A DNA stretch of 64,000 nt from Amoebidium appalachense (GCA_963693365.1 CAVNZM010000012.1:1984001-2048000), one strand, 5' to 3'. Positions 5,447-52,518 are shown, numbered from the stretch's first letter. The notes: generated from the sequence alone by a model not told the origin. A program made the numbers and translations.

Positions 5447-6306
5447 ATGGCACTGCACGATTCTATGCAAGTTGGTGCACAATATGTTGGCTTTATTGAT
5501 TGGAAAACTGCTTACGATTCTGTCTCCCCTGGTCTCCTATGGGAAAAGCTTGCTGCACGGGGTGTACCACACTGCATTGGTGTTCTGTTAGAAGCACTCT
5601 TGTCTCAAACCTATGGTAGAGCTGTGGTTAATGGGCATCTTTCACATGGTTTTGCTCGTACTAGAGGTCTCTTGCAGGGTTCATTGCTTAGCCCCTTTTT
5701 GTTTAACCTATTTATAGATGATTTGGCTGTCAAGATTTACGCCGAAAACGATGACCCTATTAATAACTTTCCGCCTGCACTTCTCTATGCTGATGATCTG
5801 TCCCTCCTTGCCCGTACCCCTAGACGCCTGCAAAGATTGTTCGATGTAGTGTCAGAGTGGTGCAAGGCAAACCTTATGATCCTTAACATAGACAAATGTG
5901 GTGTTCTTGTACCTGATATAGCTAACAATTTACACACATTTACATTATCATCTAAACCTGTACCTATAGTTCCAGAATACAAATATCTTGGTGTTCCGGT
6001 TGATTCTGTTGGTGTTATGTTTCCCCATATGGTCGAAAAGAGGGTAGAGTTGGCTCGTAAGCGGTTAGCTTTCTTCTCGGCTAATATTTTTAAAGACACA
6101 CCCCTCCATCCTTCTATTAGACTTACATTTATTCGCACTTTTGTCTTCCCGGCATGTGAATATGGTTTACCCCTTCTCGCCGCTTGGATCAAGAAAGAGA
6201 GAACTAGAGCGCTTAAACCCTTGGCAAATTTCCTTGAAGCAGAAGTTGCCTCCTTTCTATCTAACAACTGTTGTAAACCTGGGCCTGTAACGCTCTCGAT
6301 ATATGG
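5447..6306 (+). pseudogene. Non-LTR (LINE-like) retrotransposon reverse transcriptase, 5'-truncated and interrupted by virus copy A
   Basis: RT motifs FIDWKTAYDSV, GLLQGSLLSPFLFNLFIDDL, LLYADD and YKYLG. AT-richer than flanks. The frame runs into the viral terminus at 6307. Confidence 0.9.
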
Positions 6307-6768
6307 ACTACATTAAGGGGCGCGGCACCCCACGTTAGTGACGTCACAAAGTGTGACGTCACTAACGCAGGGTGGCGCACCCCTTAGGATATGGCAGATA
6401 TGCATATGGGATATGGCGATATGCAGTATGATATGGGTGTATATTGTGATTAGGATATGGATATGGGTATGGATATGTACAGGAGCACGTGCACACACTG
6501 TGTGTGTGTGTGCATAAACACGTGCAGAGCACGTGGATTTAATTAAAATATTAAAGGGAAAACGTGTCATGTGTGCGCGTGCACGCACGCGCACATGCGA
6601 CACGTACACAGTTCTGAGATCAAAGGAATGCGACAGTGTGCACAAGGCGGCCAATGAGAATTCGAATTCCGAATTCCTTGTACAAGGCGGCCAATAGTAA
6701 TGCGGATGCACAAGGCAGCCAATGATAATTCAGTTCCAAAAAGCCAGTTGCCGCACAAGGCGGCCAAT
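6307..6768 (+). repeat. Left terminal inverted repeat of copy A (462 bp)
   Basis: Matches copy B TIR apart from one extra TG unit and a few substitutions. Confidence 0.93.
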
Positions 6769-6986
6769 CGGAGTTCAGGTTGGCACATTTTGGTTTAGGC
6801 GGCCAATAAGGACACAGAGATTAAGGATTTCGGTCCTCATTGGCCACAAGCGCACCCAGCATGTCGCCGCTGTGTACATAAGCATCCGCACACAGGCAAC
6901 ATCACACCAAGCAAACATGAGCCATACGTACACAGTTGAGGTGCACACCACAGTCACGTTCACCACACCCCCCAAACAACAGCAAA

Positions 6987-7534
6987 ATGGTCAAGCCAAC
7001 CCTGCTGCGTCAAACGACTGGTCTGTCCACCGTCAAAAGGACCAGCATCGCCGCGGCAAGCAGTGGCAAAGAAAACACCAACAACAGTGAGGGGCCCAAG
7101 ATGGTGCAGTACAAGGAGGTGTTCCTCAACGGTGTGGGCAAGGCCACCATGGGCGCACCCTGGGTGATGAACGGCGTGTTGGCCGTGCAGCTGTACAACC
7201 TGCCCAACATCAACATCAACGGGCAGATGCTCATCGAGTTGGTCCCCAGCACGGTTGCCTGGGATGCCAAGCCCACCATTAGGGTCAAGTCGCAACACCG
7301 CCCTGAGCCCTTTGAGGTGGCCTACGCCGTTGACCTGTGGCCCTACGTGTGCAGCATGGCCAGGGACGTGTTGTGGATGCACAAGGACCACGAGATGCTC
7401 AAGGGGGTGGACGTGGACACCGTGCCTGTCAAGACCAGCAGCAACCTGTGGTCCAGGCACACCCCCAGCCTGTACGATGTGCTGGGTGCCGACCCCGTCG
7501 GCAAGGAGGACATGGTGGAGGCACTGGGCGGCAC
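6987..7534 (+). pseudogene. Copy A ORF1, 5' part (split by Gypsy element)
   Basis: Near-identical to 15519-16065; continues at 45144. Confidence 0.9.
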
Positions 7535-8144
7535 TGTAAACATCTGTACACGCCGTACATGTTTACTATTACGAATATACTGTACATATCATAGTGATCA
7601 CGTAGATATTGTGTACATATGATCAGATCAATATCACACGCGACAGCCGCGGGCTGCGGCTCACGACTGAGCCGCGGCGCCGGCAATATGCAGTGGCCGT
7701 GCAGTCAGTATGAACCAATAGAATTCGAGAACCGCTAGGATAGGAATGCAAGTCTCATCCACTACGGAGGCGACATCTATAGCTAAACGAACGGAACCAA
7801 TAAGGAAATCAGACCCAGTTGCATAAACCTAAACGGGCTTAAGTATTGACCAATCATTTGCCACAAAGTTATCCTTTTAGTTAGCTTCATGTTATTGGTG
7901 CACTGTGTGCACATAAAGACGACCGCACTCTTCTGACTGGTCAGAAGTCACGAAGGCATCAATGCCACCCATCCAGATGATCTGGAACCTGGGGGCTATA
8001 TAAACAAGCCGTCCCAGTACGGGGGATCACTCTGAACGAGCACATTAAATAGTAACCTGGCCGCGTGTGCCTTACTACCCGTTCTCTGTCTTTATTCTGA
8101 TTCAGTTGTTCTCTGCCTTATCCCAACTAGTTCAACTGTTTACA
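7535..8144 (+). repeat. 5' LTR (610 bp)
   Basis: TGTAAACA...TGTTTACA; direct repeat of 44529-45138 with one substitution noticed (7983 T vs 44977 C); TATATAAA at 7997-8004. Confidence 0.97.
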
Positions 8145-8196: not shown

Positions 8197-10196
8197 ATGG
8201 CGGGCGAATTTGACGACTACCCTGTACTCTCGGACAATGAAAGCAAACTGACACGTGACACCAAGAAGCCTACCGCAGTCAAACCGCCGCCCCCAACGCA
8301 GAAGAAAGCCAAGACTCCGGGGCAGGGCACGAAAACACTCCCCACCCCTCCCCCTACACAGCCTCGTGCTCCCCAGAAACCGAACACGATCACAAAACCC
8401 AACACACACACGAACACAAAGGCAACTACGAAGCCCACTGGCAACGAACAAACGAAGCCCAACGAAAGCACGAAACCCAAAGACAAAACGAAGCGCAACG
8501 AACACACGAAAACCAACGAACATACGAACACCAACGAACACACGAACACCAACAAACACACGAACGAACTTCAAGTAGCAACGAAGGAAAAAACGAAACA
8601 AGACCGGGACACTGCCACAGCTCTGGCAGAGGTGCGGGGCCGTGTTCTCTCCAAGTTCTATCGTATTGAAACTCTGAGACGTGCCATTCAAACTGCAATC
8701 GATGCTGGGCGGCCTGTGATGGACCTCGAAGCTGATGTCGCGCAGATTTACAGTGAGATTTCGCAGATGGAAGACACCACACTGTCTAGAATGTTGTGCA
8801 CGTCCGCGAAATGGTCTGAGTTGGAGCGGGAAGCACAGTTGGTGGCTGAGGCACGTGTGAAAAATACGACGGTGCCCACCACCCCCCGTCCTCCCCCACC
8901 CACCACAGGCAAGAAGCCTTTGTCCCCGGTCCCATCTGGGTGCACTGATCCCAAGGTAATTGCACCTCCCGCACCCCCCACTAAATTTACATATAAGGAT
9001 GTGCTTGCGCGCACACTCAGCTACACTGATTCTGATGCTGAAAATGAAGAAAAACACGAACAAAGTTACGAAGACACACCCACAAACGAAAACGAACACA
9101 TGACTGCGAAAGTGCATGAAGAAGATCACTTCGACCAGCCTAAAGCACCCGTATTTAACGAAATCCCCCTTGCAGGATCCCCTCTGGCGTCTGCAGGTGG
9201 ACTGGCAGGCACGCCAAGTCGCCCGAGAGGCTCTGATGTCAGCACAGGCTCAGGAGGTAAGGCTGGGTCTATATTGAACAAGCACTTTGCAGAGCACGAA
9301 AAACTGTGGTTGCACCCTCTCCGCCAGTTGCATGCATCCGAATACGGCCCCATCTTGGCTGCATTGAAACTACCAGAATACAAGGGTGACTTGCAGGATA
9401 AATGCACGGTGATTGAATGGCTGCACGAATTTTCCCAGCAGATGTTTTGCATTGCAGGGGTCCCCCCACACTTGCTGTTCGCTGGGCGGTGCAGTGCTTT
9501 CCTCTTGCTTCCCCCGCCCGTGTGTGGTACACGAATTTTACCAGGACACAGGGAGAACTCACGTTTGATGCATTTGCACATGCACTAGTTACGAAATTTC
9601 ACGACCAGCGTGTGCAAGAGGCACTCAGTGCCGAATTAAATGCACTCAAACAAGGCAAGCAAAAGGTGGCCGAATTTGCAAGCAGGCATGCGCGTTTGTG
9701 GGCACGTGTGTACCCCCTTAAGTCTGAGGCACACCAAATTTTGGATTTGTCTCACCGATTGGGTGGGGAAGACGAACAAGAATTTCGCAAATATCAACTC
9801 AGACAAACACGAAAAGAAGAAGAATTGACCCTGTCTGGAGTTGTTGCCTATCTCGCAGAAAAAGAAAGAGACAGGCACACACGAACCCCATCCACCATTC
9901 TAACACAGAAACCCCCCACAAAACAGCAACCCGGTGGTGGATCTGGTGCCAGCGAGAAGCCGTCTATTTTTTCGCGCATGGGCACCACCCCCTGCAACCG
10001 TGGGTGCAAGTACGGCAGCCACGCCGAAGGCAAGACGTGCCCGGCCCTCAAATTCGAATGCCACTCCTGCAAGCAGAAGGGGCACTTTGGGGGGTCACCA
10101 ATTTGCCCCAAGTACGACCCCAACTTTAAGAAGGGAACCCGCAAGGCAGAGATTGAGGCTAATCGGGCCAAGTTCAAGAGAGCACGTGTAGAATAG
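8197..10196 (+). CDS. gag: Gag, in two overlapping frames (8197-9588 and 9417-10196; -1 shift near 9440-9490)
   Basis: LPEYKG..IEWL in frame 1; capsid-like ARVWY...LKQGKQKVAEFASR and zinc knuckles C-x3-C-x4-H-x5-CPA-x4-CxxC-x3-GH-x6-C in frame 2. Confidence 0.85.
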
Positions 10197-13100
10197 GAAG
10201 GCGGGCAAGGGACTGGTCTCTCCCCAGTAGAACATAATGTATTTGATTTAATAGCAGAGCTGGAACTGTGTTCCCCTCTGGCAGATAAATTGCAAAATAA
10301 ATCTACTGGTGCGGAAATTTCTGTTGTCTCGGAGCCCTCCGACGAATCTGCATGTGCCCCACCCCCCCACGAACAGTTACCCCCGTGTACTGACCCCCCC
10401 ATGCACACGCACACCCCGCCCCCGCGCAAAAAGAAAAATGTGCATTTTGCTGACCGTGTGCACTCCTCCATTGCAGAACCACGGCATGAAAATGCCACTG
10501 TGTGCACATTAACCCACGAAAATAAATGCACAGCCACACTTGCGCGAATGTATGTGCATGGGAAGCTAGTCACAGTAGTTGTCGACTCTGGTGCTAGCCA
10601 TAGCTGTATAAGCACAGCATTTTACGAATCTCTCCCTGTAGTGGCAAGAAAACGAATTCAGCATGTTCCTAATTTTAGTGTACTGGATGCACAAAGTAAC
10701 GAAATGACATGCCAAGGAAGTATATCTCTCACTCTCGCCATTCCCAACGAATCTGCTCTAGTGGTGCACAGATGGCATGTGATTGATAATCTACCATATG
10801 ATGCCTTATTAGGTGTTGATTTCATGGGGCCACAACAGGGACGAATTGATTACGGTGCTGCAGAACTTTCGTTCATGTATGCTAAGGGAAATCGCAGGTG
10901 CAGTATTCCGGTGTGGTGGTTGCGTGGGAGTGCGGAGGAGACAGCTGTTTCTCGCGTATTAATTACCACCACAGGTATTCACCTCCCGGTAGATGCGTCA
11001 AATATCGCAACGTGTAAAATAAAACTCGCTGCCGGCGCACCACCACCACGAACTTTAGACTGTTGTATGGGCACAGTGGTTCCATGTGGTCCACTTAATT
11101 CACGGGCTTACACAACAGCATGCAGTGTCACCAGTTTAGCTCGAATTTCGAATAACGAACCCCCCCTCTCCACTAGCGAAGAAAGTGTGATCGAGGACGA
11201 ATACGAATGCAAGGTGTTGTTGACTAACACATCGGACCATCATGTGTACCTAGGCCCTGGTACGGAGGTGGCCATGTTTATTCCCTTGCAATCAGATGAC
11301 ACTGTTACTCTTTTAGCACGTCCACACTCCGGTAATGGAACCAGGAGGGCGACAACCCCACACCCTGGCCATCCATTAGGTACCTCTGCTAAAACGAACT
11401 TTTCTTCGCAGGAATCAACCGAAGAACCCACCGAACACGAACCACACACTTTCCAGGCGGCTACTAATATTAACGGTAGTATTAAGGTGTGTGAACGGAG
11501 TAAAATTATGAATATGAGTACGAAAGAGAACACCACACAGCGCAGTTCCACGAAAATGAATGGTTTTGGTAATCCAGCACGAACAAAACCAGAGGTAGGG
11601 CCACCTACTATCGAAGCAGCAGATGGGGCACCATCTACCACTGCACTGGAGGATACGAATAATTTACGAAAGCGTACGCACGAATGTACCTCCGACGGGG
11701 AAGCCGCCACAGACGACGACTTGCCTTTTGGGGTCAAACCTCCAGAAGAATACGACATGCCTGGAACTCCCCCAGACCAACGGAAACCGTTGGCGAAACG
11801 GATACGAAAACTGCTTAAGAAATGGAAGCATGTGTTCTCTGCACACGACAACGACTTTGGTTTGAGTACCTTAGACGAACTGTCGATCGAAGTAACTACC
11901 ACCATACCACAGTACCGCAGGCCCTATAACATCCCACATCACCTTCGCGATAGCCTAAACAAACAAATTCAAAATTGGGTAGAGTTTGGAGTGATTGAGC
12001 CTGCGTCCAGCCCTTACTCCGCTCCGATGGTGTTGGTGGCGAAAAAGGACGGGTCTTTAAGAGTCTGCATTGATTTTAGAATGCTGAACTTGATTACGAA
12101 GAAAGACGGTTACCCTTTACCACGAATTGACATGGCTCTGGGTATGCTCAGAGGTGCCCGCGTGTTTTCCGCACTTGATTTAAACGGTGGTTACCACCAA
12201 GTCAAAGTAGCCGATAACGACAAAGAAAAACTTGCATTTACCACCCCCTGGGGGCAGTATCAATTCGCACGCGCACCTTTTGGAGTAAGTAACATGCCTG
12301 CTGTCTTTTCAAGGATGATGAACCGTGTATTCGCTGGTATGCTGTGGACACATGTACTCATATATCTCGATGATATATTAGTTATGTCACCCACTATCGA
12401 AGAACATTTTGGGCATTTAGATTCATGTTTTTCCCGGCTCTGTGATGCAGGATTAAAACTGAAAGGCAGAAAATGCTCTTTGTTCATGGAAGAAGTTGGC
12501 TATTTAGGCCATCGCGTATGCCCGGATGGTATTAAGGTAGACCCAGAAAAAGTGGCAGCAATAAAGAATAAAAGCTACCCACAAAATTTATCTGAGCTAC
12601 GAAGTGACCTCGGGTTATTTTCATATTATCGAATATTTGTGGACGATTTCAGCCATACGGCTGAACCACTCACGCGAATGCTGGGCACCTCGAAGGAGGA
12701 TTCAGAATTACTAAAACGAATTCACGCAAAAATGCCCCCCTCTACGAAACCCGCCAAACGCAACGGCAGCGCAAAACAACGAAAAGACGAAGCAAAAAAT
12801 TTGCATGCCGATTCTGCAGCTATTTTGGCCACGAAAAAGAAAGCACAGAAAAATGCTGCATGGGTGTGGGGTACGGAACAGGAGAAAGCATACGATACCC
12901 TTAAGAATGCGTTAATTAATGCACCTGTGCTTGCTCACCCCGATTTCACCAAACCTTTTATTGTTGACTCAGATGCTTCACAGTATGCTCTGGGCGCAGT
13001 GATTTCGCAGGTAGGTGATGACGGCAAAGAACGACCCATAGCTTATGCTAGCAGAACACTCTCTAAGAGTGAACGAAATTATGCGGCGAATAAAAGGGAA

Positions 13101-14840
13101 GCCTTAGGTGTGTATTGGGCTGTGTGCAAAGCATTTCGCGCTTACACCTATGGGGCTCCTTTCTTGTTACGAACCGACCACTCCAGCTTGACGCGCATTC
13201 TGTCTACCGGCGATGCACCGGAACCTGTTGTTGCAGGCTGGCAAATGGCGCTTTCCGCATACACATACGAAATTCAGCACAGGGCGGGCAAACACCACAG
13301 CAATGCTGATGGACTCTCTCGGCCATCTAAAGAAAATGCGCAACCAGGACCCGAAGATACTGAGCTGACATACCCCTCACTGATCGGCACAGTCTCGGGC
13401 TCGTCCACGGTGTTTGCGGTAACACGCTCCGCCGCAGCGACAGCGCAGGCACAAGCTGCCACCCACCCACCCCCAGCTGAACCCACGAAACCTAATACCA
13501 CGCCGCCAGAATTTATTCCCCCAAAAGCGGATGGACGAATGCCCACCTATGAACAGTATGTGTCAGCACAGAAGGCTGCTAAACACATTGCGAAAGTCAG
13601 GGCCTACCTGGAAAAAGCACCGGGCTACGAATTATTTGGCAACGAAATCGCGATGGAAGCTAGTCGCTGCACCATAGACAATGACCTTGTGTATGTGTGG
13701 GTCCTAGAACAGCGTGGCCCCCGCAAACCCAGCAAGGAACCACGAATTTGGGTGCCGTCTACGCTTGTGCGCCTCGTTTTGGCCGCATGTCACGACGCCC
13801 CAACCGCAGGTCACCTCGACGCAGCACGCACCTTCCACCGTGTTACCCAGATAGCATGGTGGCCACGTGTATGGCAAGACTCGGTGCAGTGGGTAACCAC
13901 ATGCAAAGCCTGTCAATACCGGAAGACACCCCGAATGCAAAAGAAACTACGAATTCACGATGGTTTTATCCCCACCTATCCCTTTCAATACGTGTCTATG
14001 GACATTACTGAGATGCCTACGAAATCTGATCTCAGAGTTTCCCTGTTGGTGTTTCTCGACCTCTTCACTCGCTGGCCGGAAGTGATTTTATTTCACAAAA
14101 CACCCACAGCCGAAGATGTGGCAAAGGCATTCGAAGACTCCATCTACTGCCGTCACGGTCGTCCGGAATTTTTAGTATCAGACAACGGCGCGAATTTGGC
14201 AGCTATGTTGGTCACAGATGTCTGTCGAGTGTTGGCTACAAAACGAATTTTTGCAAGTCCCTACAGCCCCCAGACCAATGGTGCCGTAGAGCGATTCAAT
14301 CGCACACTTAAGAATATTCTTGCCACTCTCGTGCAGGATAAACACCACGAATGGATTGACTACTTACCGCAAGTACTGTTTTCCTACCGCACCGCCTACC
14401 ACTCTTCCTTGGGGGACACGCCATTCTTCATGCTTTATGGCAGAGATCCGGTCGAGCCCCCCCGCCCCCCAATTGCGGCTTCATGTGGGATGGAGACGGA
14501 GGAACACCGTCGAGAACTACTGCAACGAGTGCAGTATGCCCGGCAAACGGTCACACGAATTATTTCTGAAGCTGCCCGTCGTAGTAAAATCACGGCTAAC
14601 AAAAATGCTCGTGAACCCACAGAACTCGAGGGTCTGGTGTTGAAAGCAGTCACAGACTCCACCACCGACCACAGTCTACCCACGGCACTCAGACCTAAAT
14701 GGGAAGGTCCGTATCGCGTCCTGCGGCGCGTTACCGACGCCCCCATGTCTTACGAAATTCAGCGGGTTGGGTCAACGGACACCGTTCGAGCACACGCACG
14801 TCACTTGAAGCCGTATTTTCCCCGTGACGACGTTGATATG
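10197..14840 (+). CDS. pol: Pol polyprotein (protease, RT, RNase H, integrase), interrupted by copy B
   Basis: VDSGA protease; PFG and YLDD RT; DSDAS/RTDH/ADGLSR RNase H; H-x6-H...CKAC zinc finger; SMDI, SDNG and VERFNRTLK integrase; PKWEGPY motif. Confidence 0.97.
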
Positions 14841-15300: not shown

Positions 15301-15340
15301 CGGAGTTCAGGTTGGCACATTTTGGTTTAGGCGGCCAATA
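15175..15340 (+). promoter_or_regulatory. Cluster of (CA)AGGCGGCCAAT CCAAT-box motifs upstream of ORF1
   Basis: Five copies here; mirrored at the right end (about 43655-43870) upstream of pPolB. Confidence 0.6.
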
Positions 15341-16757: not shown

Positions 16758-16806
<49 letters not shown>

Positions 16807-40900: not shown

Positions 40901-43531
40901 CACAGCAAGGTACACAATGTGGATGAAGTGGGGGTTGTCGGGTGTGTGGTCGGGGGCTGGCACCGGCATGGTCTCAAAGTCCAGCACAATGTCCCTGATG
41001 GGCTGCCTGGTCTGCTTCCACACACCCCCGGGTCCGCTGCCGTCATTGTCGGGCACGTGCCGTTTGCACACGTGTGCACCCACCCTGCTGCCGGCAGCAT
41101 CCACCCTGACCCTCTGCCGTGCAGGTGACTCTCCCCCCTCCTCCCCCTCCCCCTGCTCGTTGGAGAAGCATGCCACCCTGTCACACACCGCACCGTCTGC
41201 ATCCGTGTGTGTGCACATATACACACGCCGTTGGCCACTGAGCTTGCTACGTATGAGGCACGTGTGGTTGCCGGGCATATAGCCCCCACAGCCCTTGCAG
41301 GCGTAGTCGGTGCACAGGTGTTGTGTCCACGTGTCGTCCTTCTTGGCCCCGTGCTCACCCCCCTCACCCCCCTCCCCCTCCCCCTCAGACATCTGCATGA
41401 GGTCGACGGCATCATCCTCGTCATCACTCTCACTCTCGTCGTCTGACGACTCGACAAGGCAGGGTGGGGGGTCTGTGCCTGTGTCGGAGTCCTCCCCCTC
41501 CGTGTCCGTGGCATAGTCCCAGTCCTCCCCCTCGTCGTTGGGGCCTGCATCTGCCCCTGCATCGTACCCCCCTTGCTCCTGGGCAGTGTGCAGCCGGCGT
41601 AGACGGCGCACGCTGGCGTACTTGAACTTGTAGAAGAACCGGCCGGCAGGATTGCCCGACACACACACCCTGAGGGCATCATCTCCACTGCCAATCATCC
41701 TGTACCCCTGCAGGCCGTGGGTGCACGTGGCCAGCCGGCACCAGAACACGGTGTCACAGAAGGATTGTTGCCGGCCGTCGGCCCTGGCCCCGGCCCCCTT
41801 GAGCTTGGTGCTGTGGTTGGCCATGCACCTGGCCGAAGGGAAGAGGCCACAGCAGTCGTCACAACGGTAAGGCCATGCATCCTCCCCCACCCGTGCTAGC
41901 TCCACACGGCGCCCGGGGGTCCACACACAGGCATCTGCCTGGTCGATGTGGTTCCCCTTTGATCCACAGTTCCCACACCGGTTCACACAACGGTGCACCC
42001 CCATGTTCTTGGATTGCACGGTCTGGTTGCAGTGGAAGCAGGTGCTGAGGCTCCGACGTACGGCCCCCGTGTGGTTGCCGTTGCGCAGGCGCTCGATGGT
42101 GTTGCTGACATTGGAGGGGATGGCCATGAAGTGGCCCAGCTTCTGGGAGTGGCCAAGGTACATGGTGCACAGCTTGCCGGGGGGAAGGGCCGAGCTCACG
42201 TCCCCGTACCTTCTTGCCACCCTACCCTTGCTGTCCAGGTCCACCACCACCAGCCGTAGACGGGTGACTGACTGGGTCTCACTGGCAATCTGCATGTTGA
42301 GGGCATCCACGGCTGCACCCAACTGATCCACCGTCAGCCCGTCCTCTGCAGGCACAGGCAGCTTGTACTTGGCCCACAGCCGGCGGGTGGCCCTTGCCAG
42401 CCTGCGCAGGTAGCGGTCCTGGAAGTTGCTCCTTGGGTTGATGGGTGGCTGCAGCAGGTTGCACACCCCACAGCCGGAAGACACAGACCTACCCAGAGCC
42501 TTGTTGCCAATACCAATCACATCCATAGGGTCCAGTAGTTGGCACAGCACGTGGTGGTCCTTGAGCTTCATGAGGTCACCCCCATTGCCCAGGTTCTTAC
42601 GAGTGTGCTCGGAGGGCAGGCTGCCGTTCTCGTTGCTGTTGGCTGCCTTGCTGACCCACATTGCCATACAGTACACCAGGCACAGCTGGGCACAGGAGGG
42701 GCCGTCGGCAATCTCAAGCAGCTGATGGTGGTCAAGCTCCTTCTCCCCTGTCACCTGCGGGTCGTTGCTGCTGCAGGCTGCCTTCACCAGGGTGGTCACA
42801 TCCACCACGGCCTTGGCCTCCACCAGCTCCCGCAGCCACTGGGCTGTCACCCCTGTGAGGGTGGACAGGGACCCGCAGGCACCCTTCCTCACCATGTCCT
42901 TGGGCCGGACCACGGTCAGATGCACACTGGATCGCCCGTCCATAAAGGTCTCGGCTGCACTCTGGGTGCGTTGGCGTATGTTCTCCATCAGCTTGAGCAC
43001 CACGGCATTCACATCACCGTTGAACACGTCCATGGGGCCTGCCGTAAACACACGACGGTTGGTGACATCGGCGTTGGGGTTGCCGTCATCCCCCACCTGG
43101 TTGTCCACACCATTGGCCTGCACGTGCAAGCTGATGATGCGTACGATGATCATGTCCCCCACCTGCACATCTGCACGGGCGATGGCATCAAACAGCATAG
43201 CTGCAAAGAACTGGGGGAACTCGGTGACGTCCATGGTGCGCAGGGGTTGGTACTCGAGGGTGTGGCCGCGTACGCCCAACCCCCTTGCCTGCATGTCATC
43301 CACCCGTGAACGCAGCTGCCAGTTGCCCTCGGCAGGCATGGCAATGATCTGGGGGTCATCTGGGTGGTTGATGGGGGCGGGGGCAGGGGGGAGGCCGGGG
43401 GGGGGTGGGGGTGGGGGTGGTGGGCCCTGCAGGGCCTGCAGAAACGGGTTGGCTTGCAGGGCCTGCTGCGGGTCGGCATCCAGTGCCCGCAGCAGGTCCT
43501 CTATGAAACCTTCCTGGCTGTCGTCTAACAT
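37973..43531 (-). CDS. Protein-primed family B DNA polymerase, 1852 aa
   Basis: Exonuclease LDFET, HNGSGFD, YCVKDV; polymerase FFGGRTE, DVTSLYP, KLFLNSLWGK, YMDTDS, KTYAY; Vsr-like insert FHGCVFHGC...MWECRW; long Cys-rich N-terminus. Confidence 0.97.
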   Translation of the reverse strand: MLDDSQEGFIEDLLRALDADPQQALQANPFLQALQGPPPPPPPPPGLPPAPAPINHPDDPQIIAMPAEGNWQLRSRVDDMQARGLGVRGHTLEYQPLRTMDVTEFPQFFAAMLFDAIARADVQVGDMIIVRIISLHVQANGVDNQVGDDGNPNADVTNRRVFTAGPMDVFNGDVNAVVLKLMENIRQRTQSAAETFMDGRSSVHLTVVRPKDMVRKGACGSLSTLTGVTAQWLRELVEAKAVVDVTTLVKAACSSNDPQVTGEKELDHHQLLEIADGPSCAQLCLVYCMAMWVSKAANSNENGSLPSEHTRKNLGNGGDLMKLKDHHVLCQLLDPMDVIGIGNKALGRSVSSGCGVCNLLQPPINPRSNFQDRYLRRLARATRRLWAKYKLPVPAEDGLTVDQLGAAVDALNMQIASETQSVTRLRLVVVDLDSKGRVARRYGDVSSALPPGKLCTMYLGHSQKLGHFMAIPSNVSNTIERLRNGNHTGAVRRSLSTCFHCNQTVQSKNMGVHRCVNRCGNCGSKGNHIDQADACVWTPGRRVELARVGEDAWPYRCDDCCGLFPSARCMANHSTKLKGAGARADGRQQSFCDTVFWCRLATCTHGLQGYRMIGSGDDALRVCVSGNPAGRFFYKFKYASVRRLRRLHTAQEQGGYDAGADAGPNDEGEDWDYATDTEGEDSDTGTDPPPCLVESSDDESESDDEDDAVDLMQMSEGEGEGGEGGEHGAKKDDTWTQHLCTDYACKGCGGYMPGNHTCLIRSKLSGQRRVYMCTHTDADGAVCDRVACFSNEQGEGEEGGESPARQRVRVDAAGSRVGAHVCKRHVPDNDGSGPGGVWKQTRQPIRDIVLDFETMPVPAPDHTPDNPHFIHIVYLAVAMYVEPSDGQPTGPIIFWPEPSADGKDAWDVLMDDNHHVIDKVVKWLFDTPAHAGGRVFCHNGSGFDFHFVTKRVVGSQDYVYVPIMTNSKIKSCRIRHYLKGAGAADPEPTPMPVDGDGHGDVQQQAAAAAAAAAGTGHKRRHGGERGGGSRTTVVELTFVDTLNFLTMSLSDAGKAMGCEETKGHFPHHAATFANFKAGTIPFPGPEDFGAQDMKPRQHAAFMQWWHEEQARLLEGAPAATCYDIVQQCEDYCVKDVVLLQQVVKAFMSKLIELTGIDPFTCVTLAALAMHFWISQAMPKDVAVLRDQTMGNVNSSKKEQEYIDYVTHGLGVGPDDIARHEATGYGPHGRATADAKATHDDGTCTYYFFHGCVFHGCPECNMHEDLTMRVVKRSAKEAYDSTMGHERYIRAQGHKVQSMWECRWDRLRQSPEVKAALAAQAARREGTGRVAPVPTGPVQFRDAFFGGRTEVITRHIEVKEEDWPQAGLKYVDVTSLYPYVMIDKYMPVGKSQWFTSLPIKPEDHPSVIVTDPQVLKERLDKTCRMTPGSPKARTKGYFGVARVRVLPPKDLFIPVLPVRMTGAQGYDKLGFVLCRACSSKEEALATCMDEEGNPRVREHVQCTHTDEERALVGTWTTEELKVAVRDGYTILDVYDVVHFKKRTKNLFRKYVQTFLKVKLTSTTVDPADIPALVHLFKEHYGITVTADEFSPNPALRTISKLFLNSLWGKLVQRAGLDTIEFVDDVDRLSLLVTNPNILVLDVEPIGEQRVAIKYRPKKETAPPPSYANIAIGTFVTAHARLHLYGALRSLSPQQVVYMDTDSIVYHYDSRVPHLSHNIDSTNGDLLGNWKNETTAPIVEFVGVAPKTYAYRTQDGKTDVKVKGITLSRRAADMVNLPSLRMLVHGEMPSVSVTNHRLLREPVPGVPHNYHLASKDQRKTQSGAFDKRGVFEAADGSVRSYPIGWAAPEGTLQF

Positions 43532-43741
43532 CCTGAACAGTAATCTTAGATCTTAGCCACAATGTAATTGCCAGGCAGCGCCGGCAGCAAAAACATCAAT
43601 AAACAGAACGCAAAATAATGATCCTGTGCGTGCGTAAGTGCGCCACCATTGTTTACACAAGGCGGCCAATAGGAAACCCAGGTTGACCGATCCGGGCGCT
43701 CATTGGCCGCCTTGGAAATGGAATGTGCTATCTTAATGTTC

Positions 43742-44201
43742 ATTGGCCGCCTTGTGCGGCAACTGGCTTTTTGGAACCGAATTATCATTGGCCGCCTTGT
43801 GCATCCGCATTACTATTGGCCGCCTTGTACAAGGAATTCGGAATTCGAATTCTCATTGGCCGCCTTGTGCACACCGTCGCATTCCTTTGATCTCAGAACC
43901 GTGTACGTGTCGCATGTGCGCGTGCGTGCACGCGCACACATGACACGTTTTCCCTTTAATATTTTAATTAAATCCACGTGCTCTGCACGTGTTTATGCAC
44001 ACACACACAGTGTGTGCACGTGCTCCTGTACATATCCATACCCATATCCATATCCTAATCACAATATACACCCATATCATACTGCATATCGCCATATCCC
44101 ATATGCATATCTGCCATATCCTAAGGGGTGCGCCACCCTGCGTTAGTGACGTCACACTTTGTGACGTCACTAACGTGGGGTGCCGCGCCCCTTAATGTAG
44201 T
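43742..44201 (-). repeat. Right TIR of copy B (460 bp)
   Basis: Reverse complement of 14841-15300. Confidence 0.97.
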
Positions 44202-44203
44202 AT

Positions 44204-44464
44204 ATGACGCCAGCCGACTCTGGTCCGCAAGATTCACCCACCCCCACCTTCGAAGTGGCAAAAATTATTGCCCACAAGTACGACTCGGCAACTGCCCAAG
44301 CCCTTTACAAAGTTCGTTGGAAAGGGTACACGGCTAAGAACGACACCTGGGAACCTCACTCCGGCCTGCAAGACACAGCCGCAGGAGCACTCACAGACTA
44401 CCTAGGTACTTTGGTGGCCGGCCCTGCCAGCCAGCCCGCACGAAAGAAGCGCCGACGTCGCTAA
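44204..44464 (+). pseudogene. Displaced C-terminus of Gypsy Pol: chromodomain plus basic NLS-like tail
   Basis: FEVAKII...YKVRWKGY...DTWEP and RKKRRRR; in frame with pol once copy B is removed. Confidence 0.93.
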
Positions 44465-44528: not shown

Positions 44529-45138
44529 TGTAAACATCTGTACACGCCGTACATGTTTACTATTACGAATATACTGTACATATCATAGTGATCACGTAGA
44601 TATTGTGTACATATGATCAGATCAATATCACACGCGACAGCCGCGGGCTGCGGCTCACGACTGAGCCGCGGCGCCGGCAATATGCAGTGGCCGTGCAGTC
44701 AGTATGAACCAATAGAATTCGAGAACCGCTAGGATAGGAATGCAAGTCTCATCCACTACGGAGGCGACATCTATAGCTAAACGAACGGAACCAATAAGGA
44801 AATCAGACCCAGTTGCATAAACCTAAACGGGCTTAAGTATTGACCAATCATTTGCCACAAAGTTATCCTTTTAGTTAGCTTCATGTTATTGGTGCACTGT
44901 GTGCACATAAAGACGACCGCACTCTTCTGACTGGTCAGAAGTCACGAAGGCATCAATGCCACCCATCCAGATGATCCGGAACCTGGGGGCTATATAAACA
45001 AGCCGTCCCAGTACGGGGGATCACTCTGAACGAGCACATTAAATAGTAACCTGGCCGCGTGTGCCTTACTACCCGTTCTCTGTCTTTATTCTGATTCAGT
45101 TGTTCTCTGCCTTATCCCAACTAGTTCAACTGTTTACA
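44529..45138 (+). repeat. 3' LTR (610 bp)
   Basis: Direct repeat of 7535-8144. Confidence 0.97.
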
Positions 45139-45143
45139 GGCAC

Positions 45144-45510
45144 CTACTTCAACGTGACGTTGGAGCTCCCCAACCCCCTTGGCCGCAACCCCTGCCTCTT
45201 CAAGCTGGGCAACAACGCTGCCTCCATCGACGAGTTTGTGGAGTTTATGAACTCCCAACGTGCCAAGTGCCGTGAGGTGACTGCCTGGGTGTCTGCAGCT
45301 GCCACCAGCGTCATCTACAACAAGAAGAACAACACTGTGCGTTCCAAGCTCGTTGCCCGCAAGGTTCAGGTGTTTGACTTAGATGGCCTGATGGAGCTGG
45401 CTGGTGGTGAGGGGGGCGAGGGGGAGGGGGGTGATGTAGACTTGGGGCAGGCTAAGCGTGCAGGCACGCCCATGCCCGGTAATGACGATGCCAAAATGCT
45501 CAGAATGTAA
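45144..45510 (+). pseudogene. Copy A ORF1, 3' part
   Basis: YFNVTLELPNP... matches 16066-16433. Confidence 0.9.
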
Positions 45511-45833
45511 TGACACACGACTGTATATTGAGAACATATTTGTCTACGGGTGATTGCCACGAAATAAACGGTCAAAAAACTTGTGTTTTTGGGGAAAAAC
45601 GAACACTGTGAGCTATGTGACCGACTTGACTTGTGGCGCAATGAGAGGGAGTGTCAAAGACTTGCGCAAGTATGAGCCGATGAAATTTTGCGAATTTATC
45701 TCCAGGAATGCCCAGCATGTCGTTTTTTCTTCTCTTTCCCTGTCTTTCTCAAAAAAAAACTTGAAAATCCTTTTCAATCATCTCTTTTCGTAGAAAAAAG
45801 TCTTTTAAAGTTTTTGTTACCGTAGTAGACAAA

Positions 45834-45878
<45 letters not shown>

Positions 45879-45986
45879 CTCGTTTCCTTTCGTTAGTTTT
45901 GTGAAAAAACTTGAAAATCCTTTTCAATCATCTCTTTTCGTAGAAAAAAGTCTTTTAAAGTTTTTTTGTTACTTAGACAAATCTTT

Positions 45987-46032
<46 letters not shown>

Positions 46033-46054
46033 GACTTAGGGTCAGAAAGCAATC

Positions 46055-47098
46055 ATGCCTCCTCGTCGTAGACAACCCACTTCTCGTTTCATGAGAAAGG
46101 CAAAAAGCCCAACCAAGTTTGACCAATTTTTGAACCTCTTTTGTGTTGCGTACGTGGCTGTTTTCAACGCAGCATACGAGTACATTCAGTACATCACAAA
46201 GGGTGATTGGGCCCAGCGCCCACGTTGTCCCAACCTGGTGGAGTGCTATCATAACTGGGCAGAGGCTGAGGAGACACTTATCGAGGCAAACGTTGCAGAG
46301 AAGGACGAGATTCTGGAACGTGAGCGTCTGATTAGTGCCATACAGATTGGCGTTGTGTCATGGTCATTCTCGCAGAAGGAGGCCCTACCGGGGGTTCTAA
46401 ACGAGGTTTTTCATACGGACGTGTTTAAGTGGGACTGCAAGGACGGGGTGTGGTCGGTCGGCATCGCTGTGCCTGTGTATGACACCGGTATGGATGATGG
46501 TTATGGCGAGGCCGAGTCGATCTTTAAAGACCGTGACGACACGTTCACTTTCACCCGCAAGTGCTTCGATTTCATGCAGGGGGTGGTCAACATACTCGAA
46601 CGGGCCGGGAAGTTAGATTTGATGCTACACCAACACGTCATCGACACCTACACCGACACCATGGATATTTGGGGAGCAGCATGCAAGTACAAAAAGTTTA
46701 TCAATGGAGAGTGGTTTGCCCCCGTCATACCCATGTACGACTTCTACCCGGCATCCAGACAGGAGAAACAGGTGGAATTGGGTAGAGAGACGGTCGAGAA
46801 GGTCATGGATGCCCTCGAGCTACTTACCCATGGACACGTTGCCTACCCCCGTGACATTATGGACCTGCTGAACGAATGCATCGGCATACCTCAGCTGTTT
46901 AGTGTGGTTTACGAGAGAGTCAGCAAGAGCACACGGTATGCTAAAAAACGCCCCAAATTCCAGAATTCTGTGATGAGAAAGACGGAGTATGTGTCGGTGT
47001 GGACCCTTATACTGGCAGCCCCACCCGAAAGCCCCAACGCACCCGCCGAGCGCCAACCCATCACACTGCAGAAATTAATGCTTAAAGATGGGGAGTAA
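46055..47098 (+). CDS. Copy A homolog of 16987-18030
   Basis: One amino-acid difference (T/A). Confidence 0.8.
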   Translation: MPPRRRQPTSRFMRKAKSPTKFDQFLNLFCVAYVAVFNAAYEYIQYITKGDWAQRPRCPNLVECYHNWAEAEETLIEANVAEKDEILERERLISAIQIGVVSWSFSQKEALPGVLNEVFHTDVFKWDCKDGVWSVGIAVPVYDTGMDDGYGEAESIFKDRDDTFTFTRKCFDFMQGVVNILERAGKLDLMLHQHVIDTYTDTMDIWGAACKYKKFINGEWFAPVIPMYDFYPASRQEKQVELGRETVEKVMDALELLTHGHVAYPRDIMDLLNECIGIPQLFSVVYERVSKSTRYAKKRPKFQNSVMRKTEYVSVWTLILAAPPESPNAPAERQPITLQKLMLKDGE

Positions 47099-47526
47099 GC
47101 ACACACACACACACACACACACACATGCACACATGCACATGCACACTTAAATCGTTGTCTTCTTAGGCACACACACGTGCAGGCACACGTGTGCAATGCA
47201 CCGCAGTAGTCTTGGGTTTGTACTCAGCTTGTTTTTCGTAAAAATAAAAGTTTATTTTTGCCGTCGATTGTCTTTGTAAAAAAGAAAAAACGTGGAAATA
47301 AAGGGCTCTGCCCATTGTCTTCACAAAAAAACGTGTCTATGGTCATGGACGAGCTGAGAGGGTAAAAAACGTATAAAACGTGCAAGTATAGGGCACAGCC
47401 CTGCACGGTCACCCCTAACCTAACCACTTAGGTAGATGACGTCGCTGTTCACAGTCTTGAGGAGGGAAGAAGTACGGGGCTTAGACACCTGGACCCCACC
47501 GTAGAAGTAGCGAGCACCGTGGGCCA

Positions 47527-48006
47527 TGTAAACAGTTGAACTAGTTAGGATAAGGCAGAGTACAACTGAATCAAAATAAAGACAGAGAACGGGTAGAAAG
47601 GCACACGCGGCCAGGTTGCTTTTACTATGGGCCGACTCAGTCTGTCTCAGACTTCACTGATGTGATCCCCGTACTGGGACGGCTTTGTTATATAGCCCCC
47701 AGGTTTCGGATCAAGGCCCAGGATTGGTTCATCCGCGGCCAGCGCGGGTGGCAACATGCCATTCGTGATTCTGGTGCGGTCCGAGCCAGTCAGACCTTTG
47801 TCCTATTTATGCAAACCTCTTATTGGTTCACTTCGTTTATGTGGTATGCAGCTGAAGAACCATATATGGTTCAATTCTTAGGTCAGAGTAAGTCCTATTG
47901 GTGCGGACATAATATTTATGTGATATTCATGACAAAGCACGAATCGTGTGGTAGTAGATCACATTCTTTAGTAAACATGTACAGTTCAGGTGTACAGTTG
48001 TTTACA
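47527..48006 (-). repeat. 3' LTR of non-autonomous element (480 bp)
   Basis: Direct repeat of 50602-51229 without the 148-bp duplication. Confidence 0.95.
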
Positions 48007-50601
48007 CTCCCCCCCTTGTCGGGAGCCTGGTGGTGTCGTTAGACAAGCAAACCACCAGGCTGAGAGGCGATAAACAACCTTCAGCGAGAATTCTTGTGTG
48101 TGCCGAGCTGCTGGACAGAACAGAGCAAGGACGGTGGAATAGAGTTGTGCACGTCTATGAGCACTTCTTCATTTGCCAAAACGTAAATTCATGCAGCATT
48201 CTTCTGTGATTTCATTTTCGTGGCGAAGATTGTTGCAGAGTGTGCGTGCGAATAATTCGCTAAGCCTTCGTCTCTGTGCTTGGCTTTTCTGTAGAAGTAG
48301 TATTTTCCTTTTTGGGAATTTTTCCTTTTTAGGATACTCCCGCAGATTCGTTTTCAATTGCGAGTAATTTGGTTGTGTGGATGAATGATCATACCAAACA
48401 TTCGATAATGAATATAACTCAAGCCTTAGGTCACTTCGTACTCAGGTAGTGGTGGATAGCTTCAAGGCTTAGCCACTGCTCCTTATCCCGGTTCTACCTT
48501 AAGACTGTAAGGCGAGTCACCATGGCCGGAAAAGCCACTTCTTTCATGAACAAAGAGCACTTCTTTCCTTTCAGCTTTAACCCTGCATCATCGGAGCCGG
48601 GAATAACATGAATAAAAATGCCCTAAGTGTTCTTCGTTGGGCGACATAAAGAAATATATCAGCCCGTCAGAACCAGTAAAAACCCGGTTCATAATTCATA
48701 AGAAGAGGGTAGGCAGAGCAAGTCTTCTTCAGAAAACACATGCTTCCATTCGTGAGCAGTTTTCGTATCCCATTTGCCAGCCATTTTCGTTGAGCAGGGG
48801 GATTCCAGGCATAATACATTCTTCTGGAGGCTTGGCCTAAAAAGAAAAGTCGTCGGAGTCGCCCTTTCTTTTGTAAGCAACTTCGTGAGCGCGCTTCGTG
48901 TTTTCATATCCTCCAGTGCAGGTCTGGATGGTGCCCCATCCTCTGCTTCATTTGTAGGTGGCCCTACTGTAGGTTCTGTTCGTTGTGTGGAATACCAAAA
49001 CCATTCGTATTCGTGGAACTGCTTTGTGCTGTGCTTTCTTTCGTGTTGGTGTTCATGAAGTTACCCCGTTCACACACCCTACTTCTTACATACATTAGAT
49101 GTAAGTAGCTGCCTGGTGAGTGTGTGGTTCGTGTTCGTGGCATTCTTCTGTTCCTTCGTGAGAAGAATATTCGTTTTAGCAGAGGTGCCCAATAAGGCAG
49201 CTTGTGGGGTTGTCTCCCGCATGTGCCCATTGGTGGGGTATGCACGTGCTAAATTGTTACAGTGTCATCATATTGCAAGGGAATAACATGGTCACCTCCG
49301 TACCAGGGCCTAGTAGGTACACATGATGGTCCGATGTGTTAGTCAACAACACCTTGCATTCGTATTCGTATTTGTCTTCCACGTCACTTTCTTCAGTAGT
49401 GAAGGAGGGTATTCGTAATTCGAAACTGAAAGGCTTCCAGCCAAAATACTGACACTGTATGATGGGGTTGTGAGGGAGCGGTGCCCATACCACATTCTTT
49501 TGTTCTGGTGGGGGTGTGCCGGCAGCTAGTGCAAGGCTTGACAGTGTAATTGGTATGTTACACCGTATTGCCACAGACGGGCATTCACCTTAAAATTCGT
49601 ACCCAACACCTTCTTTGTTTTTCACATGCATGAACAAAAGTTCTGCATCGACTTTATTACATGCCTTTTGTGCACCAAGAGTGCAAATTCGTTAGGGCGT
49701 GGCACCAGGAAGGGCCGCCATACATGAGTCAGGCATATGTTCGTAATGTGTTTAGGCATGCCAGCATACATTCATGCGCATGTTGTGCATCCTGGGCGCT
49801 AAACTATGGGGCATGCTGTATTCGAGAACAGCAAGGGATTCGAAGCATGCATGCAACACTACTTTCATAAGATCTTAGGTCCTACATGCTATAGCAACAG
49901 CGACTATCTTCTTCGTTAAGTGCATTTGTGCTGAAAGTGGCCGTGCATCTGGCTTGCGAGTGTGGACGTGCATGCGGTGGCATGGACACGATGGCAGTGT
50001 GCAATAGGGCAATGCACGCAAGGGCAACGGTTTTATTTTCTTCCTAACATAGAGGGGGCTGTGTGCATTGCAACCCAAGCAGTGTTGTGCATTCGTCCTT
50101 TCATTTTCGTATTTCCAGTTCATTTTGCTTTCGTTTTTCGTTTTTTGTCGTTTGATAACTTCGTTACTTCGTTTTGTTTTCGTGTTGCATTCATTTCGTA
50201 TTTCCTCTATGCAATCGTTTGTCGTTAATTCTTTATTTCATTGCGTATTCGTGATGGTTCGTTTTTCGTTGGTTCATTGCTTCGTTAGCAATTCTTTATT
50301 CGTTTGTTCGTGTATTCGTTGTTTCGTTGTGTATTCGTTTTTCTTCACATTTTTGATGTGTCGTAGCAAAAGAAGTTTTACATGCTTTCAATTCTTTCCG
50401 TGTAGGTGGGCTGGCCACTTCAAACTTGTAGGTGTATATATTCTAAGCCGGACAAGGAAAGATGTGCCTATCATCGGGGTAAAAAGGATTGTGATCGGCC
50501 ATGGGAGATTCTTGAGCTGATTGAAAGATGTGAGATTCTTGAACTGATTGAAAGATGTGAGATTCGAAGGATGCGAGATTCTTGAACTGCGCGGTCGCCA
50601 A

Positions 50602-51229
50602 TGTAAACAGTTGAACTAGTTAGGATAAGGCAGAGTACAACTGAATCAAAATAAAGACAGAGAACGGGTAGAAAGGCACACGCGGCCAGGTTGCTTTTAC
50701 TATGGGCCGACTCAGTCTGTCTCAGACTTCACTGATGTGATCCCCGTACTGGGACGGCTTTGTTATATAGCCCCCAGGTTTCGGATCAAGGCCCAGGATT
50801 GGTTCATCCGCGGCCAGCGCGGGTGGCAACATGCCATTCGTGATTCTGGTGCGGTCCGAGCCAGTCAGACCTTTGTCCTATTTATGCAAACCTCTTATTG
50901 GTTCACTTCGTTTATGTGGTATGCAGCTGAAGAACCATATATGGTTCAATTCTTAGGTCAGAGTGAGTCCTATTGGTGCGGACATAATATTTATGTGATA
51001 TTCATGAGCCAGTCAGACCTTTGTCCTATTTATGCAAACCTCTTATTGGTTCACTTCGTTTATGTGGTATGCAGCTGAAGAACCATATATGGTTCAATTC
51101 TTAGGTCAGAGTGAGTCCTATTGGTGCGGACATAATATTTATGTGATATTCATGACAAAGCACGAATCGTGTGGTAGTAGATCACATTCTTTAGTAAACA
51201 TGTACAGTTCAGGTGTACAGTTGTTTACA
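50602..51229 (-). repeat. 5' LTR of non-autonomous element (628 bp, with internal 148-bp tandem duplication)
   Basis: GAGCCAGTCAGACC begins at both 50858 and 51006. Confidence 0.95.
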
Positions 51230-52518
51230 GGCCATCTTGTTGTTGTTGTTGTTGTAGGTGATGTTTCTGTTGCAGCTGCTGCAGATGGTGTAGAGGGGGG
51301 CACGGTTCTCCTTGTGATCTGGGGCAAGCTCCGGGACAGACTTGCGCCGTGACGGGGCCTCCTTGGCAATGTTTTTCTTGATCAACCCTGCAAAGTGAAT
51401 CTTTTGACCTAAACCACACGCACGCTCCTCTGCAATAGTGCGCAGCAGGGCCTGCATTTCATGCAGGATATCCAGGGGAACCCCTTTGAAGATGGGTGTG
51501 GACTTTAACTTGGCAGCCTTGGCAGTGGCCACCATGGCCTGCAGGAATCCTACAAGAACATGGGCCAGGAGGTGCACAAGCTCGTCCTCACGGTAGGGAG
51601 ACACAGTCCCTGACTTGCACATAGCGGCAATGGGCTGCCAGCCGTCCTCTACCTGGTGCATGTACCTGTGGATGTAGTCGCCAACCAGCTGAGGATCTGT
51701 CTCGGCCTTGTACCTGATAGACCTGTCGTGCTCGTTGAACAGTGGCAGGAGGAGGTCTACCACAGCAGCCGCCACCCCCTTGAGCATGAGGGCGTTGCGG
51801 CACGCGAGTGTTAGCTTAATCGAATCGGTGTGCAAGTCTGCCAGGTCTGCCAACCCACGTACGTTGTCACGCAACAGTGCCTCAGGCAGCCACATCCCAA
51901 CAAAATCGTTGTGACCAGCGAAGCGTTTCTGGAAGTAGACTTTCCCCCCTGGGTTGTAACCAGCCTGGAAGAAGCCATCAACCGTGGCGGGATGGAGGTA
52001 GGCCGAGTTCTCCACAACACCGGGCTGTGCAGCATACCCCTCAGCCAGTGTGCGGTGGAGCTTGTAGAAGGGGTCAGGAACAAGGGCGGAAACATCTATG
52101 TCGGCCCAGGAGAAGGTGCGTAGATCATTGAAACAAGGATAGCCAAAGGATGTGACCATGGGTGTAGGTACAGAAAGGGCGGATGCTGCAGCAGCCTGAG
52201 CAACAGCTGTACCATTGCAAAGAGGGGGTAGGGGAGAGAGAGGGTTCATGTTTAAAAAGTTCGCTGTTTGCAAAAAGGCAGGCTAGAGTGGCTTAGAATA
52301 AAGGAAAAATGTTTGAAGAATGGACCGTTTGCAGGTGGTTTTTTGTGCCCTCCGGCACACATGCTGCCATTGCTCCAAACTTTGGTGACTCGCGTTGCAC
52401 TAGGCGGCCAATCAAAGCGCAGGAAGGCTACCAATGGAATGAAAGTCAACAAACCTTATTGGTTCCTCGCACCGCCCGCCAACGGTGTTTCCTGTGTGCA
52501 CTTACCATATATGGGTTT

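What the first reader, a model, noticed from the sequence alone, without database searches (positions are those of the whole stretch)
5447..51234. Four-layer Russian-doll nest: LINE > virus A > Gypsy > virus B, with reciprocal virus/retrotransposon targeting
Seen: every junction with both ends visible has a clean 5-bp TSD (GGCAC, ATATG, GGCCA), and removing each insert restores the interrupted ORF. Both virus copies landed in retroelement coding sequence, and both LTR elements landed in viral ORFs. Gypsy LTRs differ by about 1/610 and copy B TIRs by about 1/460, so the events are recent. Inference: virus and retrotransposon family are co-active and preferentially insert into each other or into the same silenced chromatin. 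This parallels Ngaro retrotransposons in Cafeteria endogenous mavirus-like elements, but here it is two-way and involves an LTR element.
Basis: partly seen in the sequence, partly recalled or inferred. Interest (0 to 1): 0.85.

Follow-up and report, generated by a model that had tools for sequence, protein, structure and literature searches.

The report
Virus inside transposon inside virus
In what is likely the genome of a single-celled relative of animals, a DNA virus sits inside a jumping gene that sits inside an older copy of the same virus; the nesting is real, but it likely reflects insertions piling up in silenced DNA rather than virus and transposon seeking each other out.

Summary
The nest is real. 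A 5'-truncated LINE is cut at 6306 by Polinton/adintovirus-like copy A. A carries an 8.2-kb Gypsy and a 3.7-kb non-autonomous relative. The Gypsy carries copy B (29,361 bp; 460-bp TIRs; pPolB, rve, ATPase, VLTF3, Dam). All three closable junction pairs have exact 5-bp duplications, and the empty sites exist in copy B or in public contigs. The LINE is 96.5% identical to an Amoebidium protein, and the virus matches the published Amoebidium 'adintoviruses'. Reciprocal targeting is not shown: the virus is 83% coding, that genus' genome is about 50% TE, and two-way PLV/TE nesting is already reported in Halocafeteria. (1) The Gypsy is a chromovirus: B splits off a chromodomain whose best structural matches are H3K9me readers, which gives a likely route into silenced viral DNA. 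(2) B cannot be a copy of A: it lacks A's inserts, A/B differences are enriched for synonymous changes, and the head of a fibre-like gene is only 40% identical in otherwise 99.6% identical genomes. So these are two separate integrations of sister viral genotypes. Good textbook example, modest novelty.

The parts
5417..6306 (+). 5'-truncated LINE fragment (RT region), broken by virus A at 6306
   Evidence: RVT_1 E 9e-23; 96.5% aa to EukProt Amoebidium parasiticum P0002; uninterrupted family contigs continue both before 5417 and after 6306
6307..7534 (+). Virus A, left end: TIR and 5' part of the 304-aa ORF
   Evidence: 5 substitutions vs B 14846-16066; TIR start at 6307
7530..7534 (+). TSD GGCAC, left copy (right copy 45139-45143)
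   Evidence: single copy in B at 16062-66
7535..8144 (+). Gypsy 5' LTR (610 bp, TG..CA), followed by PBS
8197..10196 (+). Gypsy gag, in two frames in the window; all 4 runs have one more base in the C run at 9461, likely an assembly indel
   Evidence: Retrotrans_gag, Ty3_capsid; table 4
10401..14840 (+). Gypsy pol PR-RT-RH-INT, cut by virus B after the integrase
14836..14840 (+). TSD ATATG, left copy (right copy 44202-44206)
14841..44201 (.). Virus B, 29,361 bp, no insertion seen, TIRs 14841-15300 and 43742-44201
15519..16433 (+). 304-aa viral ORF; its counterpart in A is hit by the Gypsy near codon 183
   Evidence: GC3 0.82 vs 0.57/0.41 at other positions; no family match
18358..19479 (-). 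About 373-aa viral ORF; its counterpart in A is hit by the second LTR element near codon 340
   Evidence: no family match
20753..21298 (-). Dam adenine methyltransferase
   Evidence: PF05869 E 1e-15
21616..22935 (-). rve-type integrase; A's copy differs by a one-base indel in a G run
   Evidence: rve_3 E 0.005, below cut-off; D-D-E motifs visible
26378..27859 (-). Fibre-like protein of B (repeat stalk, C-terminal beta-rich head); function inferred
30598..31341 (+). A32-like packaging ATPase
   Evidence: Pox_A32 E 4e-9
31354..33102 (+). 582-aa putative major capsid protein (by position next to the ATPase and size; fold not confirmed)
   Evidence: one relative P0001 at 54%; model pLDDT 27
36580..37467 (-). 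VLTF3-like late transcription factor
   Evidence: Pox_VLTF3 E 8e-12
37973..43531 (-). Protein-primed family B DNA polymerase, 1852 aa
   Evidence: DNA_pol_B_2 E 4e-37; top hits 36-41% identical, named ones from nematode, coral and frog genomes
44249..44392 (+). Group-I-type chromodomain of the Gypsy pol, in frame with the part left of virus B
   Evidence: Chromo E 1.6e-11; MPP8, Clr4, CDY, HP1 best PDB hits; frame
44529..45138 (+). Gypsy 3' LTR, preceded by PPT
45139..47526 (+). Virus A, middle piece
   Evidence: 9 substitutions vs B 16062-18464
47527..51229 (-). Non-autonomous LTR element, 3703 bp: LTRs 628 and 480 bp, same PBS/PPT/termini type as the Gypsy, deleted and frame-broken pol; TSD GGCCA 47522-26 / 51230-34
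51230..64000 (.). Virus A continued, runs off the window; right end expected about 13,033 bp further if uninterrupted
59261..59920 (-). Alternative head of A's fibre-like gene, 40% aa identity to B's
   Evidence: A-type joint also in run X13

Best explanation
This is a real stack of sequential insertions (LINE, then virus A, then two LTR retrotransposons, then virus B inside one of them) that likely built up because silenced, dispensable DNA both tolerates new insertions and is predicted to attract the chromodomain-bearing Gypsy. Shown: the order LINE < A < Gypsy < B and A < second LTR element; 5-bp staggered integration at three sites; the chromodomain; B is not derived from A. Inferred steps: (1) a LINE lands already 5'-truncated; (2) virus A integrates into it through its rve integrase; (3) the host methylates and silences it, as published for Amoebidium adintoviruses; (4) the Gypsy integrase is tethered by its chromodomain to H3K9-methylated chromatin and inserts into A, and a deleted relative with the same PBS, PPT and termini is moved in trans; (5) a sister viral genotype, from another locus or a new infection, integrates with little site preference and is kept because it only breaks an already dispensable Gypsy. 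No specific virus-retrotransposon recognition is needed.
For: TSDs and empty sites. Chromodomain with aromatic residues matching MPP8 (FEV..VRWKGY), best hits all H3K9me-type readers. A group I chromodomain of MAGGY binds H3K9me2/3 and is proposed to steer integration (PMC3350952 passages). Amoebidium adintoviruses are hypermethylated, ~30 kb, 44 copies in a ~50% TE genome, and secondary TE insertions in viral regions are mentioned (PMC11244446 passages). Chance levels are unremarkable: 0.69 and 0.04-0.25. B lacks both inserts of A; 22 of 48 coding differences are synonymous vs 23-28% expected, P 4e-4 to 7e-3; fibre-like head 40% identical. One other TIR-bearing contig (X17 record 17) has 499 flanking bases that lie on neither this LINE fragment nor this Gypsy.
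Against: No chromatin data: H3K9 methylation at this locus or in this organism was not seen in anything I read, and chromodomain binding is a prediction. All four insertions did land in another mobile element, which is also what targeting predicts. The viral integrase shows no chromodomain, so step 5 relies on retention alone. Host identity rests on one protein match. The second LTR element has lost the region that would hold a chromodomain, so its tethering would have to come in trans.
Confidence: 0.6

Rival explanations
1. Pure chance plus purifying selection: all elements insert without chromatin bias, and nests survive because they harm no gene.
For: About 50% TE genome in the likely host genus; probabilities; no site preference reported for EMALEs.
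Against: The Gypsy keeps an intact-looking chromodomain; two LTR insertions in the 16.3 kb of A that is visible.
Confidence: 0.22
2. Specific reciprocal targeting: this Gypsy family seeks endogenous viruses, like type-1 Ngaro in EMALEs, and the virus seeks retroelements.
For: 4 of 4 insertions in the window fit the pattern; precedent of 91% of type-1 Ngaros in EMALEs; both LTR elements share PBS, PPT and termini.
Against: n = 2 per direction in a window chosen for the pattern. The Gypsy is a multi-copy family whose uninterrupted form is what contigs show in 3 of 4 runs. The two LTR-flank consensus strings displayed match nothing in the window (weak, as they are mixed consensus of 3 and 2 contigs).
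Confidence: 0.12
3. Assembly artefact: repeats were chained wrongly.
For: Homopolymer indels at 9461, 30264, 44520 disagree with all 4 runs laid, so the assembly has errors; no bridging record was displayed.
Against: Each junction pair closes with its own exact TSD and resumes at the right base. The B/Gypsy and Gypsy/A junctions on the right are only 937 bp apart. A and B differ at 63 sites plus a swapped domain.
Confidence: 0.04
4. Local hop: virus A copied itself into the Gypsy it carries.
For: 99.6% identity and proximity.
Against: When B inserted, A already held the Gypsy, yet B has the empty site; B also has a different fibre-like head and selection-shaped differences.
Confidence: 0.02

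Closest known systems
Amoebidium endogenous 'adintoviruses' (Sarre et al. 2024, PMC11244446; passages and supplement passages read)
   Same: About 29-30 kb with terminal repeats; VLTF3, Dam, PolB closest to adintovirus type; multi-copy; host genus matches the LINE hit.
   Different: In the passages I saw the paper reports no virus-in-Gypsy-in-virus nest, TSD length or fibre-head variation ('nested', 'target site', 'Gypsy': 0 hits in the main text). I did not determine whether this window comes from any assembly of that paper.
Nested PLVs and virophages in Halocafeteria seosinensis (bioRxiv 10.64898/2026.07.28.741278; passages)
   Same: Viruses inside viruses, viruses in LINE/MULE regions, TEs inside viruses: already two-way.
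   Different: TEs are MULE and LINE, not a chromoviral Gypsy; different host and virus lineages.
Ngaro in Cafeteria EMALEs (PMC8547959; passages)
   Same: Retrotransposon inside an integrated Polinton-related virus.
   Different: Ngaro is a tyrosine-recombinase element with measured preference (91% for type 1); here a DDE-integrase LTR element and no measured preference.
Retrotransposons nested in cryptophyte PLVs, incl. a Copia in G. theta (PMC12220804; passages)
   Same: LTR-type elements disrupting PLV genes; PLV fibre proteins described.
   Different: No virus inside the retrotransposon in the passages seen.
Chromoviruses with group I chromodomain, e.g. MAGGY (PMC3350952; passages)
   Same: PR-RT-RH-INT-chromodomain, 5-bp TSD.
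   Different: Ichthyosporean-like host; binding not tested.

Membership tests
Polinton/Maverick/adintovirus (Polintoviricetes) | Protein-primed PolB | tested here: met
   PF03175 E 4e-37
Polinton/Maverick/adintovirus (Polintoviricetes) | rve integrase | tested here: met
   rve_3 E 0.005, under the curated cut-off; D-D-E motifs read; TSD of integrase type
Polinton/Maverick/adintovirus (Polintoviricetes) | Packaging ATPase | tested here: met
   Pox_A32 E 4e-9
Polinton/Maverick/adintovirus (Polintoviricetes) | TIRs and 5-6 bp TSD | tested here: met
   460-bp TIR, 5-bp TSD; 5-6 bp norm quoted
Polinton/Maverick/adintovirus (Polintoviricetes) | Double jelly-roll major capsid protein of Polinton type | tested here: inconclusive
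   No Pfam, PHROG or PDB match; model pLDDT 27; one unnamed relative
Adintoviridae sensu Starrett 2021 | Adenain maturation protease and OTU-like PolB N-terminus | tested here: inconclusive
   Not detected by Pfam or by a motif pattern over ORFs of 70 aa or more; features from PMC8502044 passages. A divergent copy is not excluded.
Amoebidium adintovirus-like elements | VLTF3 + Dam + PolB, about 29-30 kb | tested here: met
Amoebidium adintovirus-like elements | Placement in one of the published clades; hypermethylation | not testable with these tools
   Published sequences and methylome not held
Chromovirus (Ty3/Gypsy) | LTRs, PBS, PPT, PR-RT-RH-INT order | tested here: met
Chromovirus (Ty3/Gypsy) | C-terminal chromodomain with aromatic cage | tested here: met
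Chromovirus (Ty3/Gypsy) | RT phylogeny within chromoviruses | not tested
   No tree built
Ngaro-EMALE-type targeted association | Tyrosine-recombinase retrotransposon | tested here: not met
   rve integrase LTR element
Ngaro-EMALE-type targeted association | Genome-wide enrichment of the retrotransposon in viral DNA | not testable with these tools
   No genome held

The most novel reading that the evidence does not exclude
A chromoviral Gypsy family uses its H3K9me-type chromodomain to home in on freshly silenced endogenous Polinton-like viruses and so disables them, while a still-circulating virus population that swaps fibre heads keeps re-integrating into the same silenced retroelements: a measurable two-way enrichment linking host silencing, retrotransposon targeting and virus turnover in an animal relative.
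Probability: 0.15. Interest if true: 0.65.

Novelty: new member of a known kind. Interest (0 to 1): 0.33.

Why it matters
The nest gives a clean relative chronology: this Polinton-like virus integrated both before and after a Gypsy insertion, so the two were active in the same period. The two copies are sister genotypes with selection-shaped differences and different heads on a fibre-like protein, which hints that these elements still move as viruses rather than only as transposons; no virions are known for Maverick-Polintons. The chromodomain makes a simple test available of whether host silencing of endogenous viruses invites the retrotransposons that destroy them. As it stands it is one locus in a known class of events.

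Tried and rejected
No genome held, so no genome-wide junction count. The look-up of sequencing runs: no RNA holder listed. Read laying: no further LTR-to-virus or TIR-to-Gypsy joint among 6 of 6 rows and 15 of 17 rows; contigs drop rare variants, so this is no evidence of absence. Run X18 has no cover over most of the virus end: not interpreted. Summed contig depths were not used as copy numbers. Related loci: none in viral contigs (ATPase; capsid alignment) or metagenome contigs. Capsid candidate: no fold, no PDB or PHROG hit; the ESM Atlas gave no answer in six tries. Fibre head model pLDDT 51: no significant PDB match, best VIA Z 5.7 at rmsd 4.0 over 100 residues, generic beta-sandwiches with several phage tail proteins at Z 4-5, weak BFVD hits: 'fibre' stays an inference. 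A trimer prediction was not run. Two loose ends inside virus B in X17 match nothing in the window. A clock test of A/B divergence (0.41%) against LTR divergence (1/610) is uninformative, P 0.29. A 6-bp TSD for B was considered and rejected: the LINE continues with a different base after 6306, so the first A belongs to the TIR. No TIR or TE identity found for the flank 2600-5416. Earlier scan notes: none. Gao et al. 2008 not held.

Full report
Observation. A self-comparison of the window and junction read-outs give this layout: LINE 5417-6306; virus A from 6307; Gypsy 7535-45138 with TSD GGCAC; virus B 14841-44201 inside the Gypsy with TSD ATATG; virus A again 45139-47526; a second LTR element 47527-51229 on the minus strand with TSD GGCCA; virus A to the window end. 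Copy B holds each LTR target 5-mer once, so it shows the empty sites. The Gypsy LTRs differ at 1 of 610 sites and B's TIRs at 1 of 460; the 95% intervals reach 0.9% and 1.2%. Public contigs show the uninterrupted Gypsy (joint from 14842 to the LTR in X10, X13, X17; 3 of 4 runs) and the uninterrupted LINE (loose ends at 5417 in 3 of 4 and at 6306 in 2 of 4 runs among the rows shown). A's right end should lie about 13,033 bp past the window. Read support for the window's own junctions was not seen, but the piece tables were cut to 32 rows each.

Host. The LINE fragment is 96.5% identical over 229 aa to a EukProt protein labelled Amoebidium parasiticum. I infer an Amoebidium-like ichthyosporean host from this one match.

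The virus. B is 29,361 bp, about 83% covered by non-overlapping ORFs of 100 aa or more. It encodes pPolB, an A32 ATPase, VLTF3 and Dam and an rve-type integrase (weak Pfam hit; motifs). Of the ten top PolB relatives looked up, the three with organism names are from a nematode, a coral and a frog. This matches the Amoebidium 'adintoviruses' of PMC11244446 (passages and supplement passages: VLTF3, Dam, capsid proteins, PolB, a 29-kb example, 44 copies, hypermethylated). The capsid candidate 31354-33102 could not be confirmed and no adenain was detected, so family-level membership in Adintoviridae is open.

The retrotransposons. The Gypsy has gag, PR, RT, RH, INT. The piece to the right of B continues pol in frame and is a chromodomain (E 1.6e-11) whose best solved relatives are MPP8, Clr4, CDY and HP1 (that these read H3K9me is recalled, and for HP1 stated). 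B therefore separates the integrase from its chromodomain. The second element shares termini, PBS and PPT type but is 75-83% identical in patches, deleted and frame-broken; its LTRs are near-identical apart from a ~150-bp duplication, so it was likely moved in trans. In run X17 two joints in gag have canonical GT..AG ends and are absent from the other 3 runs: a hint of spliced Gypsy RNA, though the run is not on record as RNA.

A versus B. B cannot be a copy of A, because A already carried the Gypsy when B inserted and B has the empty site. Outside the fibre-like gene (its 20-odd stalk differences and one boundary site were left out) they differ at 63 of 15,340 sites; 22 of 48 coding changes are synonymous against 23-28% expected (P 4e-4 to 7e-3), so much of the divergence arose under selection, before integration. 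A has a stop in one ORF that B lacks. The C-terminal ~220 aa of the repeat-stalk protein are only 40% identical, and an A-type joint is also present in X13 beside the B-type. The head folds weakly as a beta-sandwich with no decisive match; the N-terminus is paralogous to the neighbouring ORF. 'Fibre with swapped head' is an inference from architecture.

Targeting. Two LTR hits in ORFs: P 0.69. Two virus copies in TE DNA: P 0.25 at the ~50% TE content reported in PMC11244446, 0.04-0.12 at assumed retroelement shares, before correcting for a window chosen because it looked striking. One further TIR contig has a flank that is neither this LINE fragment nor this Gypsy (record 17), and two LTR-flank consensus strings match nothing in the window (weak). 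In favour of targeting, all four insertions did hit another mobile element. The genome-wide test could not be run.

Mechanism and rivals. Best: sequential integrase-mediated insertions accumulating in silenced DNA, with a predicted chromodomain bias for the Gypsy and neutral retention for the virus (0.6). Rivals: chance plus selection (0.22), specific reciprocal targeting (0.12), misassembly (0.04), local self-copy (0.02).

Known parallels. Halocafeteria already shows viruses in viruses, in LINE/MULE regions, and TEs in viruses (bioRxiv 10.64898/2026.07.28.741278, passages). Cryptophyte PLVs carry nested retrotransposons including a Copia (PMC12220804, passages). Ngaro-EMALE has a measured preference (PMC8547959, passages). 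LTR nesting is common in plants (PMC6911290, listing only). Mosaicism in these viruses is reported for replication modules (10.64898/2026.10.13.758929, passages). I found no report of this nest or of a fibre-head swap in Amoebidium elements in searches and the in-text finds; subscription journals and unseen supplements are not covered.

Verdict. Observation confirmed; interpretation partly supported; new member of a known kind; interest 0.33.

Noticed in passing
window 26378-27091 vs 59160-59920: Head domain of the fibre-like gene is swapped (40% aa) between otherwise 99.6% identical viruses; an X17 joint 26359-26859 may be a third allele or an antisense spliced RNA (plus-strand GT..AG ends).
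   Followed up: partly
window 8953-9174 and 9254-9925: Two canonical-looking splice joints in Gypsy gag in run X17 only.
   Followed up: partly
window 9461, 30264, 44520, 36060, 55636: Homopolymer indels; the first three disagree with all 4 runs, likely assembly errors, so the gag frameshift and perhaps A's integrase frameshift may not be real.
   Followed up: partly
window 37973-43531: PolB region draws many more 90-95% variants than the capsid module in the laid contigs, a hint of a second viral lineage sharing the polymerase.
   Followed up: no
window 22957-23547, 25817-26359, 26378-27859: Three minus-strand ORFs begin with a similar N-terminal motif; tested for two (E 1e-12), third by eye.
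   Followed up: partly
window 34197-34634: About five 90-bp tandem copies inside virus B; the region varies among contigs.
   Followed up: no
window 392-2498: Two ORFs without family match, between long G runs; possibly exons of a host gene or another transposon.
   Followed up: no
window 14841-14925: The TIR starts with an internal inverted repeat of about 73 bp.
   Followed up: no
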